Shown here: piece by piece, positions 2,694 through 13,920 of the stretch | Position numbering within the stretch: the first letter of the stretch is position 1 | Layout of the letters: the number at the start of each line of letters is the position of its first letter | NCBI GenBank assembly: GCA_951406725.2 | Contig: OX597822.1 | Location: forward strand, 1,054,001 to 1,118,000 | Length of the DNA stretch: 64,000 nt | Source of the DNA: Octopus vulgaris | Lineage: Eukaryota | Direction of reading: 5' to 3' | Position numbers and translations under genes: made by a program | The notes under the pieces: generated by a model | The model's input: only the letters and a program-made list of their open reading frames with translations | What the model was told of the DNA's origin: nothing | Database searches by the model: none

Positions 2694-2910
2694 TATTTCT
2701 TTACTGCCCACAAGGGGCAAAACACAGAGGGGACAAACAAGATCAGACAAACGGATAAAGTCGATTACATCGACGCCAGTGCGTAACAGGTACTTATTTA
2801 ATCGACCCCGAAACGGTGAAAGGCAAAGTCGACCTCGGCGGAATTTGAACCCAGAACGTAGCAGCTAAGCATTTCGCCCGGCGTGCTAACCACTCTGCCA
2901 CCTCGCCGCC
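2694..2910 (-). mobile_element. SINE family A (tRNA-like head), tail type 1
   Basis: Reverse complement of the family consensus GGCGGCGAGCTGGCAGA..GTTCAAATTCCGCCGAGGTCGACTTTGCCTTTCATCCTTTCGGGGTCGAT..GCCCCTTGTGGG.AGTAAAGAAATA. Confidence 0.85.
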
Positions 2911-3188
2911 ACAACCTTCACAACTACAACTGCTACCAAAATCGTCGCCCCTCTTACTCACCAGCTCTACCTTCACCAACACCTTCATCACCACCACCAC
3001 CACCATCACTACCACTCCCACCGCTACACAAGTTGCTGCTGCTGTTACTACAGCAGCAGCAACTGTTGTAGTAGTAGGGTGGAGATGATTGTGGTTGGTG
3101 TAGCGCTGGGAGTGGAAGTGATGGTGGTGGTGGTGGTACTACTACTACTACTACTACTACTACTATTACTACTACTACTACCTAAGTG

Positions 3189-9388: not shown

Positions 9389-10747
9389 TTCACACACACA
9401 CACATACACATACATATGCATTACACTCACGGATACACGAACACAGTCATTCATACGCACACACATTCACTCATTCATACACACACACACACCACACGGA
9501 CGAACACACACACACATGCATACAGACACACCCACACACTATCACACATGTATCCATTAATACACTTGCATATATAAATTTATTCATATCGGTATTTGTC
9601 TGTTCGCATGTGTTTGCGTAGAAGGCGCCATCTGGCTGTGGAATCTCGGCCTTGTACTTGTTTAGATTTTCCATTTGGAAACGTTTAACTTAAATCACTT
9701 TGACTTTCATTCCAAGTGGCAAAGCATGGCATCAGGAGTCCTCATTTATTTTAATCAATAAAAACAATTAAATAACAAAACAAAATAAATCAAAAGAGCA
9801 ATCATACCCGAAAACTATCAGAATATACGAGCTAAATTGCTGCCCTTCGTTTCGTAAAGTAGAGGGCAGCAGTTACAAATATATTTACTTTCAAATTCAT
9901 TCGACGCTTAAAGAACTAGAAAAGTCTTCCCCATTCAGATTTCTTTGGATAGTTTTCTGGTCGTTATCTGAAACCATATTTCCTGCAACAAGAGAAAGGA
10001 GAGAGAACATTTTAAAATTTTAAGTTATATTCTGTTTATATTATTTAAACATATAAAGCTAATACGTGTCTTCCACGCAGCAATCGTTTTAGCTTCAACA
10101 CACGGTCTCAGCTCAAATTACTTGACTGGCCTGTACAACCTCCAATATATATATATATATATTCACATCTATAAATGTCTTTAACTATTTATTTTAATTA
10201 ATCAAGTATTTTTCTTTTCTAGAACTAAATTTCCCCTGAAAAATTTAAGAAGACAATAATTACCAATATTTGTAAAATTCAGGGCAGCGAGCTGGTAAGA
10301 TCGTAGCAAGCTGGGCAAAATGCGTCGCAGCATTTCGTCTGTCTGACCTCAAATTCCGTCGAGTTCGAATTTGCCTTTCATCAGTTCAGAGTAGAATGAT
10401 AGAAGTATGAGTTGAACACCGGGGTCAATGTCATCGACTTATCCCCTGTCCCAAATTTACGAGCCTCGAGCCAAAATTAGAAACCGATACTTATAAAAGC
10501 CAAATGACTGTAGAATGTCAAACACGAGGAAGTTAATTTCTTAGAATAATAATGTTTTTTTTATTTACAATCCGAAGGCTGAAATAATCCGTTGTACATA
10601 AAGGAATATCAGTTATATATAGAGATAATTCATTATTAGTATTCTACATTATTAGAATACTAAGACAGCATCCCAAACAATTTTCTTAAATTTCTCAATA
10701 TATATATATATATATATATATATGTATCACCATGATCGCCATCACCA

Positions 10748-11210
<463 letters not shown>

Positions 11211-11400: not shown

Positions 11401-11888
11401 GTACATCTGCATGGAATGGAGTACACGCAGTCTTTGGTGATATTCTCTTCTATTGGTGGTTTTACTCGAAGGAGATATTTGCGAAGTATTGTATTACTCT
11501 TGAATTCCGTCCGATGTCATATGAACCGCATATCTTTTGTATCTTTTCGAAGAGGCATTTCACATAGTGGAGACAGACTGGGGTCAGTTTATGGGCTTCA
11601 TCCTCTCTCTTCTTCCTAATTGGAGTGGGTAAAGTTTTTTGGGTAGTTGTTGCTAAATACATTGTTTCTTAGCTTCATCTTTCTTCGTGGTGTGTATCAT
11701 GTTTGCTCGATACTTTAGGCACTGAGAAAACCTCTCTTTACACTGTATGGATGGTGAGAACTGAAGTCGAGGTATCGTCCAGTGAAGATTGGCTTGCAGT
11801 ATACGGATCTCCTAAACCCATGTTTAGTACGTGTTATTAATACAGCCAGGAATGCTAACTGATGGTCTTTTCCCTTTTCCTTTTACCA
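11401..11888 (-). pseudogene. Penelope-like element: RT C-terminus and linker to the start of GIY-YIG (inverted 5' segment)
   Basis: Minus-strand peptides LAFLAVLITRTKHGFRRSVYCKPIFTGRYLDFSSHHP and FKSNTILRKYLLRVKPPIEENITKDCVYSIPCRC match PLE motifs (LPFLDV..VYRKPT.TG.YL...S.HP; VY.IPC). Stops and frameshifts are present. Confidence 0.85.
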
Positions 11889-12247
11889 CTGCATTTACTC
11901 CATTTCATGCAGTTGTGGTATTCAAAGGCGAAACATGACGCCCACTCAGAATAAGGGTAGAGTAACATCGTAAAGTTGTGAGACGAGGAGATGTTGAAAA
12001 ATCGGGTATAGCTGATCATGTATGGAAAAAACGGAGACCACCTTCGCCTGTGGGATGAAGTTAAAATAATAGGCAGAGAACACCAATGGAAAATACGAAA
12101 ACAAAAAGAGGCAGCCCACATGCTAGGACACAATAGCCTCCTAAGCAGACCTAGTGCAGCTATGAGTAGAATATGGGAACCAGTATTAAGGAAGGATACA
12201 AAAATATTAGGTTTATAAGTCCTAAAATTCACTCTCTAATAGCCTAC

Positions 12248-12320
12248 GGGCACATAACGTAGTGATTAAGAACGTGGGATAGTAATCCCAAGATTCCAAG
12301 TTCAATTCCAGGCAGTGCCT
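12248..12320 (+). other. 73-nt tRNA-like sequence inside the PLE tail
   Basis: The ends GGGCAC/GTGCCT pair. It has an A-box-like TAACGTAGTGA, a central stem TGGGAT/ATCCCA and a B-box-like AGTTCAATTCC. Confidence 0.6.
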
Positions 12321-12394
12321 TGAATAATAATGATATCAAAAAAATACTTTAGGAATGAGAACTCAAGGCTGGGTTAAAAATTCCACCAAGATTC

Positions 12395-12430
12395 CTGAAG
12401 AAGGCTGGAGAGTAAATCAACCGAAATGTT
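12395..12430 (+). ncRNA. Decayed minimal hammerhead ribozyme
   Basis: CTGAAGA-A-GGCTG..CAACC-GAAAT-GTT. Stem II has one mismatch and stem I is not intact in this copy. Confidence 0.5.
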
Positions 12431-12704
12431 TTAGTAACAACAAACAAGATGAGGAAACATATCCGTCCAATGTGAATAATGTTTAGGAGTTTATTTCTTG
12501 CATTTGTAGTCAACACGTAGCAGCCTCCATTTTGTTTCCAATTTAAAAAAATTTCTATTTGGAAGATACAACCACAATATTATGCAACAGTTTGCATTTT
12601 AGACATTGCGGATCCAAATATCAAAATGTGTTAGTGTTAATCTTGGAGATCATCTGCTTTGACATACGATTCAGATATGTTTGTATAGAAGTATTATTCT
12701 AAAT

Positions 12705-13192
12705 AACTCCAGCTAAGTCACAAGTATTTACTCACAATCAACTTTTATTTCCTGTCTTACAAGCGTTCAATGTGACCACCGCCTGCAGCACGGGCAACAT
12801 CAGTGCGATAAGAGAATTTCTCTCAGACGCGTATCTGCTTGGCGTGCGAGATCCCCAGATCTCACGTGTGTAATTTTTTCTAATTGTTGGGATATGTAAA
12901 AGATCGCGTTTATGTTCCACCGTTACCCGCTAACATCGATGACATTAACCATCGAATAACAACAGCGATCAACTCAGTGGCTTGTGATATGCTGATTCGC
13001 GTCTTGGAGGAATTCTCTTACCGCATTGATGTTGCCCGTGCTGCGGATGGTGGCCACATTGAACGCTTGTAAGACAGGAAATAAAAGATGATTGTGAGTA
13101 AATACTTGTGACTCAGCAGGAGTTTTCTATTGTTTTTTTCCTTATTAAAATATTGCGTAATGAAATCGGTTCATTCTTTTCGAATAACCCAG
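12705..13192 (+). mobile_element. Tc1/mariner-derived foldback element with a transposase C-terminal fragment
   Basis: ORF 12884-13072 reads GYVKDRVYVPPLPANIDDINHRITTAINSVACDMLIRVLEEFSYRIDVARAADGGHIERL (typical ..GGHIEHL end). Arms 12705-12838 and 12991-13124 are inverted copies. It ends GAATAACCCAG|TA. Confidence 0.85.
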
Positions 13193-13356: not shown

Positions 13357-13542
<186 letters not shown>

Positions 13543-13544
13543 TC

Positions 13545-13920
13545 TCTCTTTACTCTTTTACTTGTTTCAGTCATTTGACTGCGGCCATGCTGGAGCACCG
13601 CCTTTAGTCGAGCTAATCGACCCCGGGACTTATTCTTTTGTAAGCCCAGTACTTATTCTATCGGTCTCTTTTGCCGAACCTCTAAGTGACGGGGACGTAA
13701 ACACACCAGCATCGGTTGTCAAGCAATGCTAGGGGGACAAACACAGACACACAAACACACGCACACACATACACATACATATATATACATATATACGACA
13801 GGCTTCTTTCAGTTTCCGTCTACCAAATCCACTCACAAAGCATTGGTCGGCCCGGGGCTATAGCAGAAGACACTTGCCCAAGATGCCACGCAGTGGGACT
13901 GAACCCGGAACCATGTGGTT
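13545..13920 (-). mobile_element. SINE family B, lacking the first part of the head
   Basis: Reverse complement of 56926-57308 with an internal (CA)/(TA) tract. Confidence 0.9.

What the first reader, a model, noticed from the sequence alone, without database searches (positions are those of the whole stretch)
12248..12430. tRNA-like cloverleaf directly upstream of a hammerhead in a Penelope tail
Seen: about 30 bp after the GIY-YIG remnant lies a 73-nt sequence with paired ends and A/B-box-like motifs, and 75 bp later an HHR core CTGAAGA..GAAA. Known: Schistosoma Sm-alpha repeats combine a tRNA-related Pol III head with an HHR, whereas PLE pseudo-LTRs are normally described as Pol II units. 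Inference: this PLE family may carry its own Pol III promoter or tRNA-like processing signal, able to spawn a tRNA-HHR SINE. This copy is decayed.
Basis: partly seen in the sequence, partly recalled or inferred. Interest (0 to 1): 0.72.

Follow-up and report, generated by a model that had tools for sequence, protein, structure and literature searches.

The report
tRNA-headed Penelope retrotransposon with hammerhead
The stretch is the decayed tail of an abundant Penelope-type jumping gene whose terminal repeat begins with a tRNA-derived piece where about half of sampled insertions start, so the element likely uses a captured tRNA-gene (RNA polymerase III) promoter, which would be unusual for a protein-coding transposon.

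Summary
Confirmed, and it is a family trait. Window 11403-12482 is a truncated, partly inverted copy of a Penelope-like element (RT plus C-terminal GIY-YIG) with at least 1,956 copies in a 2.8-Gb animal genome. Its terminal repeat reads: tRNA-Arg-like head, (AAT)n, ATG, minimal dimer-type hammerhead, tail. All 29 other endonuclease-seeded copies continue into the head; all 30 head-seeded loci continue into the same AAT-linked body. Of 89 hammerhead-seeded insertions, 44 have their furthest 5' end within -10..+8 of the tRNA start, against 4 in the next 359 nt, so the template RNA likely began there. A and B boxes are kept; the cloverleaf is only partial. The ATG lies in frame through the hammerhead into the ORF, an arrangement shared by a 55%-identical relative. 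Best reading (0.5): a captured Pol III-type internal promoter sets the RNA start and yields full-length and ~280-nt SINE-like copies. Not shown: Pol III transcription, ribozyme cutting, or an independent SINE lineage. RNA-seq gave no start signal, and the absence of TTTT is weak evidence. This copy's hammerhead is predicted dead. I found no report of a tRNA-headed Penelope in eight paper searches.

The parts
11403..11883 (-). Inverted piece of the Penelope ORF (RT C-terminal part), broken; collinear with the next piece in other copies
   Evidence: blastn against copies; tblastn with a natural copy's frame; 11403-11431 is the reverse complement of 11888-11916
11888..12218 (+). Direct piece of the ORF: GIY-YIG endonuclease region, frameshifted, stop TAA 12216-12218
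12214..12219 (+). TATAAG overlapping the stop codon, about 28 nt upstream of the inferred RNA start; role untested
   Evidence: sequence
12241..12247 (+). Seven-base leader; in the family it forms a short palindrome with the first tRNA bases; inferred RNA start zone and centre of fold-back junctions
12248..12320 (+). tRNA-derived head, closest to tRNA-Arg(ACG) among the tRNA types sampled; partial cloverleaf
12255..12265 (+). A box (decayed in this copy; TRGCGTARTGG in the family)
12300..12309 (+). B box GTTCAATTCC (GTTCRATTCC in the family)
12323..12335 (+). (AAT)n linker, length very variable between copies
12355..12357 (+). ATG which, in the upstream repeat of full-length copies, opens a frame through the hammerhead into the ORF
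12390..12435 (+). Minimal type I hammerhead (core 12395-12401, extra A, stem II, GAAA 12423-12426, palindromic stem III, predicted cut after 12430); decayed here
   Evidence: features as in PMC4209133
12436..12482 (+). Rest of the terminal repeat up to this copy's 3' end; the optional ~30-nt tail is absent here

Best explanation
This is a decayed copy of a Penelope-like retrotransposon family whose terminal repeat begins with a tRNA-Arg-like head that likely serves as an internal RNA polymerase III-type promoter. Shown: the unit is head-(AAT)n-ATG-hammerhead-tail, then a 779-codon RT-endonuclease frame, then the same repeat; cDNA 5' ends pile up at the head's 5' edge; the ATG is in frame through the hammerhead. 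Inferred: the A/B boxes start RNA about 6-7 nt upstream of tRNA +1. From an upstream repeat the RNA would run through the ORF (no TTTT in the way); from a downstream or solo repeat it would give a ~280-nt head-hammerhead-tail RNA. The element's own RT copies either RNA from the shared 3' end to the RNA start, where the cDNA often folds back on a short palindrome or joins a second cDNA, giving the head-to-head insertions. Uncut RNA keeps the start codon; a hammerhead cut (predicted to need a dimer) would remove it. How an uncapped Pol III RNA would be translated is unexplained; a separate Pol II message is possible.
For: 5' ends: 44 of 89 insertions end in a 19-nt window at the head edge, 4 in the next 359 nt, 10 beyond; per-base stopping rate 0.040 vs 0.0008. 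Independent reads show opposite-strand joints converging on the same edge. Inferred start is 13-14 nt upstream of the A box, the usual tRNA-gene geometry (recalled). The three subfamily differences inside the boxes are all purine-purine changes at degenerate positions, while T, D and anticodon stems are each partly broken, the pattern described for tRNA-derived promoters in Helenus LTRs (PMC10886601). No TATA-like motif lies just upstream of this hammerhead (sequence), whereas 12 of 23 related spacers have one within 90 nt. 0 of 30 ORF-start copies carry ORF 3'-end sequence upstream of their 5' repeat; L213 runs from flank straight into head and ORF. No TTTT in the 2,340-nt majority ORF (expected 2.6; P = 0.043). 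A distant relative, L313, has a perfect A/B-box pair in the same position (0 of 300 shuffles).
Against: No direct transcript evidence: three unstranded RNA-seq runs show no start or end pile-up, 75-81% of reads run on into unrelated sequence, and the 2.5-3.6-fold depth step at the head matches the genomic copy profile. TTTT absence is weak: 3 of 19 long related ORFs also have none, and GGGG is also absent. Only one ORF-start copy (L213) is contiguous from head edge to ORF; six others reach the edge through a separate inverted arm. A TATAAG lies about 28 nt upstream of the same start, which suits Pol II as well. L313 keeps a TATA near its hammerhead, has longer box spacing, two TTTT runs in its ORF, and is not sister to this family. 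Pol III RNA is uncapped and SINE-like Pol III elements are short (PMC10886601). The family is old (median 93.5% identity to column majority).
Confidence: 0.5

Rival explanations
1. The RNA starts at the same place but by Pol II, driven by the TATAAG at the ORF stop in tandem or 3' repeats; the tRNA head is a passenger captured at the RNA 5' end or a helper element.
For: TATAAG at 12214-12219, about 28 nt upstream of the pile-up. The characterised Penelope promoter lies in the pseudo-LTR and resembles TATA-less LINE promoters (PMC2377424). A capped RNA explains translation.
Against: New copies would lose the upstream TATA, and 0 of 30 ORF-start copies have it. It does not explain intact A/B boxes at the right distance in both subfamilies.
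Confidence: 0.17
2. The head is a processing signal: RNase P cuts read-through, tandem or circular RNA at tRNA +1 and so defines the template 5' end.
For: Acceptor-like stem kept at 5-6 of 7 pairs; +1 is the commonest single end (8 of 37 non-fold-back edge ends). 15 of 30 ORF-start copies cross the predicted hammerhead cut site, which re-ligated circles would allow.
Against: 17 of those 37 ends lie upstream of +1, 6 at -7, some joined directly to unique flank (L145, L147); part of this can come from fold-back or microhomology. T stem has only 3 of 5 pairs and the acceptor register is shifted.
Confidence: 0.15
3. The pile-up is a reverse-transcription artefact: RT copying long or circular RNA stalls or snaps back at the palindrome at the head edge, and the head has no promoter role.
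For: The leader and first tRNA bases form a palindrome; 7 of 44 edge ends were scored as fold-backs centred on it and more show short traces; 55 of 89 insertions have an inverted partner arm.
Against: The hairpin is 4-5 bp; most edge ends join other positions or unique flank; structure-caused stops are expected at the 3' side of the tRNA fold (inference), where the rate is 14-fold lower.
Confidence: 0.13
4. A tRNA or SINE inserted independently into this one decayed copy.
For: None beyond the weak single-copy scores.
Against: 29 of 29 endonuclease-seeded copies continue into the head at the same position; 30 of 30 head-seeded loci continue into the same AAT-linked body, none into another SINE body.
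Confidence: 0.01

Closest known systems
Canonical EN+ Penelope-like elements, Penelope/Poseidon type, with minimal hammerheads (PMC4209133; PMC8557442; PMC2377424)
   Same: Single RT-GIY-YIG ORF, pseudo-LTRs, optional 30-40-nt tail, inverted 5'-truncated partner arms, minimal type I hammerhead with extra base after A9, G10.1-C11.1 pair and palindromic stem III.
   Different: The repeat starts with a tRNA-derived A/B-box head that marks the 5' boundary; no TATA-like motif just before the hammerhead; start codon upstream of, and in frame through, the ribozyme. 'tRNA' does not occur in PMC4209133 and occurs once, for selenocysteine, in PMC8557442.
Schistosoma Sm-alpha / Sj-alpha SINE-like repeats (PMC2770079; PMC6765202)
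   Same: tRNA-derived sequence plus hammerhead in a short high-copy retroposon; Pol III transcription reported for Sm-alpha.
   Different: Sm-alpha is non-coding, often tandem, tRNA-Gln-related, with a canonical ribozyme; here the unit is the terminal repeat of a coding element, tRNA-Arg-like, with a minimal ribozyme, dispersed and often head-to-head.
Cassandra, Helenus and Ajax ('TRIMp3'; PMC10886601)
   Same: Small-RNA-derived Pol III promoter inside a terminal repeat; boxes kept, tRNA structure lost.
   Different: Those are non-autonomous LTR elements of 0.3-1.3 kb without ribozyme; this is an autonomous 2.9-kb Penelope element.
Animal non-LTR retrozymes (PMC7229834; bioRxiv 10.64898/2026.07.22.740005)
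   Same: Short hammerhead-bearing units related to Penelope pseudo-LTRs.
   Different: Retrozymes are head-to-tail tandems thought to spread as circles; here short copies are dispersed, share a fixed 5' edge and retain an uncut ribozyme site.
tRNA-derived SINEs (SINE2) with a LINE-derived tail
   Same: tRNA head, A/B boxes, 3' end shared with the autonomous partner, about 280 nt.
   Different: The partner is a Penelope element that itself carries the head; no separate SINE lineage or target-site duplications were demonstrated.

Membership tests
Penelope-like element, EN+ (Penelope/Poseidon type) | Single ORF with RT followed by C-terminal GIY-YIG endonuclease | tested here: met
   RVT_1 at E 5.8e-8 and 2.7e-6, below the curated cut-off; CVYSIPCSCGRLYKGET motif read by eye, Pfam GIY-YIG did not hit; 779-codon open majority frame; full-length copies L239, L241
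Penelope-like element, EN+ (Penelope/Poseidon type) | Direct pseudo-LTRs, inverted truncated partner arms, optional short tail | tested here: met
   55 of 89 with inverted arm
Penelope-like element, EN+ (Penelope/Poseidon type) | No Zn-finger-like linker before the endonuclease (unlike Neptune/Nematis); clade placement against named references | tested here: inconclusive
   No such linker seen, unlike Neptune-like copies in the same genome; the tree holds no named reference elements
Minimal PLE hammerhead | CUGANGA/GAAA core, extra base after A9, G10.1-C11.1, short stem I, palindromic 15.2-16.2 | tested here: met
   108 copies not seeded on the ribozyme; 28 of 89 main-subfamily and 2 of 19 window-subfamily copies fully intact; not met in the window copy
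Minimal PLE hammerhead | Self-cleavage as a dimer | not testable with these tools
   No end pile-up in RNA and no 5'-end cluster at the cut site; unconstrained cofold did not give the active dimer
tRNA gene | Complete cloverleaf | tested here: not met
tRNA-derived SINE (SINE2) | tRNA-derived head with A and B boxes at the 5' end | tested here: met
tRNA-derived SINE (SINE2) | Transcription by Pol III | not testable with these tools
   RNA-seq uninformative; TTTT absence weak
tRNA-derived SINE (SINE2) | Own non-autonomous lineage distinct from the partner | tested here: inconclusive
   No majority difference in the head (9 vs 58 copies) or the 112-nt body (9 vs 41); small ORF-linked samples
Non-LTR retrozyme | Head-to-tail tandem units with a hammerhead in each | tested here: not met
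   Short copies are single or head-to-head in the 89 insertions

The most novel reading that the evidence does not exclude
An autonomous, protein-coding Penelope retrotransposon that swapped its Pol II promoter for a captured tRNA promoter, is transcribed end to end (2.9 kb) by Pol III, uses an in-frame hammerhead as a switch between message and template, and sheds SINE-like copies from its own terminal repeat: a living intermediate for Sm-alpha-like tRNA-hammerhead repeats, reached more than once among Penelope elements (L313).
Probability: 0.3. Interest if true: 0.85.

Novelty: new variant of a known kind. Interest (0 to 1): 0.63.

Why it matters
Pol III promoters are known in non-coding parasites (SINEs, Cassandra-type TRIMs), while autonomous retrotransposons are described as Pol II units. 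A coding element whose RNA boundary is a tRNA head would blur that line, would remove the usual need for a tandem upstream copy, and would show a direct route from a Penelope pseudo-LTR to tRNA-plus-hammerhead repeats such as Sm-alpha. The start codon placed upstream of the ribozyme gives a concrete, testable role for Penelope hammerheads, whose function is still open.

Tried and rejected
ARAGORN and Rfam: no tRNA or hammerhead in the window or in copy L274 or L313. tRNA-Thr origin, my first guess from recall, scored below Arg(ACG) in the full heads; the ACG genes were fetched after I suspected them and the comparison set covers only a few isotypes. Pfam on four short window frames: nothing. 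PDB sequence search: nothing. Viral contigs: no relative. Prokaryote genome contigs: two probable contaminant contigs; L390 by eye has a TATA-like motif and no boxes. Sequencing-run search: no RNA holder listed; the RNA laid came from runs added by species label. Target-site duplications: none evident by eye in the printed junctions, not tested formally. Neptune-like copies as TTTT control give 5.6 per kb against 0.47 per kb here, but they are T-richer (74 seen, 90 expected), so this is a poor control. DNA of the closest relatives (55-68% identical proteins) could not be fetched, so whether they have the head is open. Rows dropped: L071 (same insertion as L072) before the count of 89; alignments scoring under 45; L311 and L314 from the 25 spacers tried (no ribozyme match), leaving 23, several of them near-duplicates. 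Scripts 42, 69, 103 and 104 ended in errors; only the parts printed before the error (69, 103) are used. Lunse et al. 2017 (PMC5785218) was not held.

Full report
Observation. The coordinates hold: stop codon 12216-12218, tRNA-like segment 12248-12320, CTGAAGA 12395-12401, GAAA 12423-12426. Single-copy tools miss both motifs, and the fold is marginal (z -1.95). The case rests on the family. The window lies in a 2.8-Gb, 227-contig genome; its repeats look octopus-like to me from recall, which no tool confirmed.

The element. Window 11888-12482 is the direct part and 11403-11883 an inverted upstream part of one insertion, with a 29-nt overlap. Other copies carry an RT (Pfam RVT_1) followed by a GIY-YIG-like motif read by eye. 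Column-majority letters over 118 fragments give one open frame of 779 codons; L239 and L241 are full-length natural copies. A 34-letter ribozyme pattern matches exactly 1,956 times, its reversed control 0 times; 3 of 26 unselected copies match it, so about 17,000 copies is a rough guess. Median identity to the majority is 93.5%: the family is old. DNA runs under five organism labels share about half of the sampled words. There are two subfamilies; the window copy is in the rarer one.

The head is integral. All 29 other copies seeded on the endonuclease continue into the head at the same place (the query included 13 head bases); 22 of 29 pass a crude three-motif test and the rest have internal deletions or substitutions. 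All 30 loci seeded on the head continue into the same AAT-linked sequence and none into another SINE body; 24 of 30 matched a body motif further on (these 30 include one duplicate pair and three insertions seen before). Among the tRNA types sampled the head is closest to this genome's tRNA-Arg(ACG), 47-52 of 73 positions, with Arg(TCG) near. In 79 ungapped heads the stems are partial (acceptor 5-6 of 7 in a shifted register, D 3 of 4, anticodon 3 of 5, T 3 of 5), while A and B boxes fit the recalled consensus and the three subfamily differences inside them are purine-purine changes at degenerate sites (one is a CpG site, so this is modest evidence).

The hammerhead. In 108 copies not seeded on it, the motif has a 5-bp stem I (weaker in the window's subfamily), CUGAUGA, an extra A, a 6-bp stem II, GAAA and a palindromic ACGU with U at position 17. 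These are the features of minimal Penelope hammerheads, which cleave poorly and only as dimers (PMC4209133, parts 1-2 of 4 read). The window copy has lost C15.2, three stem I pairs and one stem II pair, so it is predicted inactive.

Where cDNAs end. I took 90 of the first 100 listed ribozyme matches, all on one contig and unselected for 5' extent, giving 89 insertions. Furthest 5' ends: 17 downstream of the tRNA, 14 inside it, 44 within -10..+8 of its first base, 4 in the next 359 nt, 10 beyond. The stopping rate is 50-fold higher at the edge than in the ORF. Seven edge ends are fold-backs on a short palindrome; of the other 37, 17 lie upstream of +1 (6 at -7), 8 at +1 and 12 at +2..+8. 55 of 89 have an inverted partner arm. 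I infer a template starting about 6-7 nt upstream of +1, 13-14 nt before the A box.

The upstream repeat and the start codon. In 30 of 193 copies holding the ORF start, the tail runs straight into the ORF. Fifteen cross the predicted cut site, so their templates were uncut or re-ligated; L213 runs from unique flank through the whole head into the ORF; six more reach the head edge through a separate inverted arm; none carries ORF 3'-end sequence upstream. An ATG between head and ribozyme is in frame with the ORF: 38 of 51 ATG-to-tail distances keep frame and the commonest lengths (126, 135, 132, 141) all do, though only 3 of 8 individual ORF-start copies still do. A 55%-identical protein, P0003, begins with a matching translated-ribozyme segment; it was the only one of 18 long relatives to match my peptide pattern, and P0119 shows a similar start by eye.

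Pol III or not. For: box position and conservation; no TATA-like motif just before this hammerhead, where 12 of 23 related spacers have one within 90 nt by a loose pattern; no TTTT in the majority ORF (P 0.043 against synonymous permutation, 0.015 against base shuffling). Against or neutral: 3 of 19 long related ORFs also lack TTTT; a TATAAG sits about 28 nt upstream of the start; three unstranded RNA runs show no start or end pile-up and look like read-through from many copies. One of 23 related spacers, in tandem array L313 (38% identical to P0003), has a perfect A/B pair followed by AATAATAAT and an in-frame ATG-hammerhead, but it keeps a TATA, has longer box spacing and is not sister to this family; two members of the same clade lack boxes. 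That suggests independent capture but is a single contig.

SINE question. Short head-ribozyme-tail copies are the commonest product, but they show no majority differences from ORF-linked copies and similar divergence (small samples). They are best seen as SINE-like by-products. Internally deleted repeat-ORF fragment-repeat copies also exist.

Literature. Passages read: PMC8557442, PMC6765202, PMC4918200, PMC4758252, PMC10886601, PMC13282606, PMC7761336, PMC7229834, PMC2770079. PMC2377424: abstract and Discussion. bioRxiv 10.64898/2026.07.22.740005: parts 1-3 of 5, abstract to discussion, no mention of tRNA heads there; supplements not seen. Eight searches showed no Penelope element with a tRNA-derived repeat; two of them returned nothing. 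Repbase, Dfam, subscription papers (including Ohshima and Okada 1994 on octopus tRNA-derived SINEs, seen only as a citation) and the octopus repeat library supplement were not examined, so the family may already be catalogued under a SINE or Penelope name. Three earlier AI notes describe tRNA-bearing, ribozyme-free non-coding elements with Penelope-type ends in other genomes; I did not test them.

Verdict. A real, family-wide and apparently undescribed architecture in a known class. The 5'-end pile-up and the in-frame ribozyme are shown; Pol III use is the likeliest cause (0.5) but untested. Interest 0.63.

Noticed in passing
L313 (JGI1357J11328_10009043) 2741-3030: Tandem Penelope array whose ORF-to-hammerhead spacer has a perfect A/B-box pair 57 nt apart, then AATAATAAT, a TATA and an in-frame ATG; a different tRNA-like sequence from the one here.
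   Followed up: partly
L230 and L231, about 1500-1870; also L207, L209, L223, L227: Internally deleted copies (repeat, short ORF start, repeat); L230 and L231 share the same breakpoint, hinting at a small non-autonomous subfamily.
   Followed up: no
L043 near 3021 and L011 near 724: A second, unrelated minimal hammerhead family with a T-rich upstream region and no A/B boxes.
   Followed up: partly
window 12338-12347: AAAAATAC lies about 50 nt upstream of the hammerhead core, where relatives have TATAAATAC; possibly a relic of a lost TATA box (by eye only).
   Followed up: no
window 12690-13170: Fragment resembling a Tc1/mariner transposase C-terminus (recalled resemblance) with an inverted duplication of its flanking part.
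   Followed up: no
window 10281-10480, 10725-11030 and 13540-13920: Several other tRNA-headed SINE-like repeats between TA microsatellites; none shares the head studied here by eye.
   Followed up: no
L242-L271: Several Neptune-like Penelope families in the same genome, with a Cys-rich linker and T-richer ORFs; no B box found downstream.
   Followed up: partly
G000:C2:211,887,000-211,907,000: Dense cluster of more than 20 tRNA-Arg(ACG)-like matches at about 200-bp to 1-kb spacing.
   Followed up: no
L389 and L390: Penelope-like ORFs on short contigs filed in bacterial metagenome-assembled genomes; probably host contamination.
   Followed up: no
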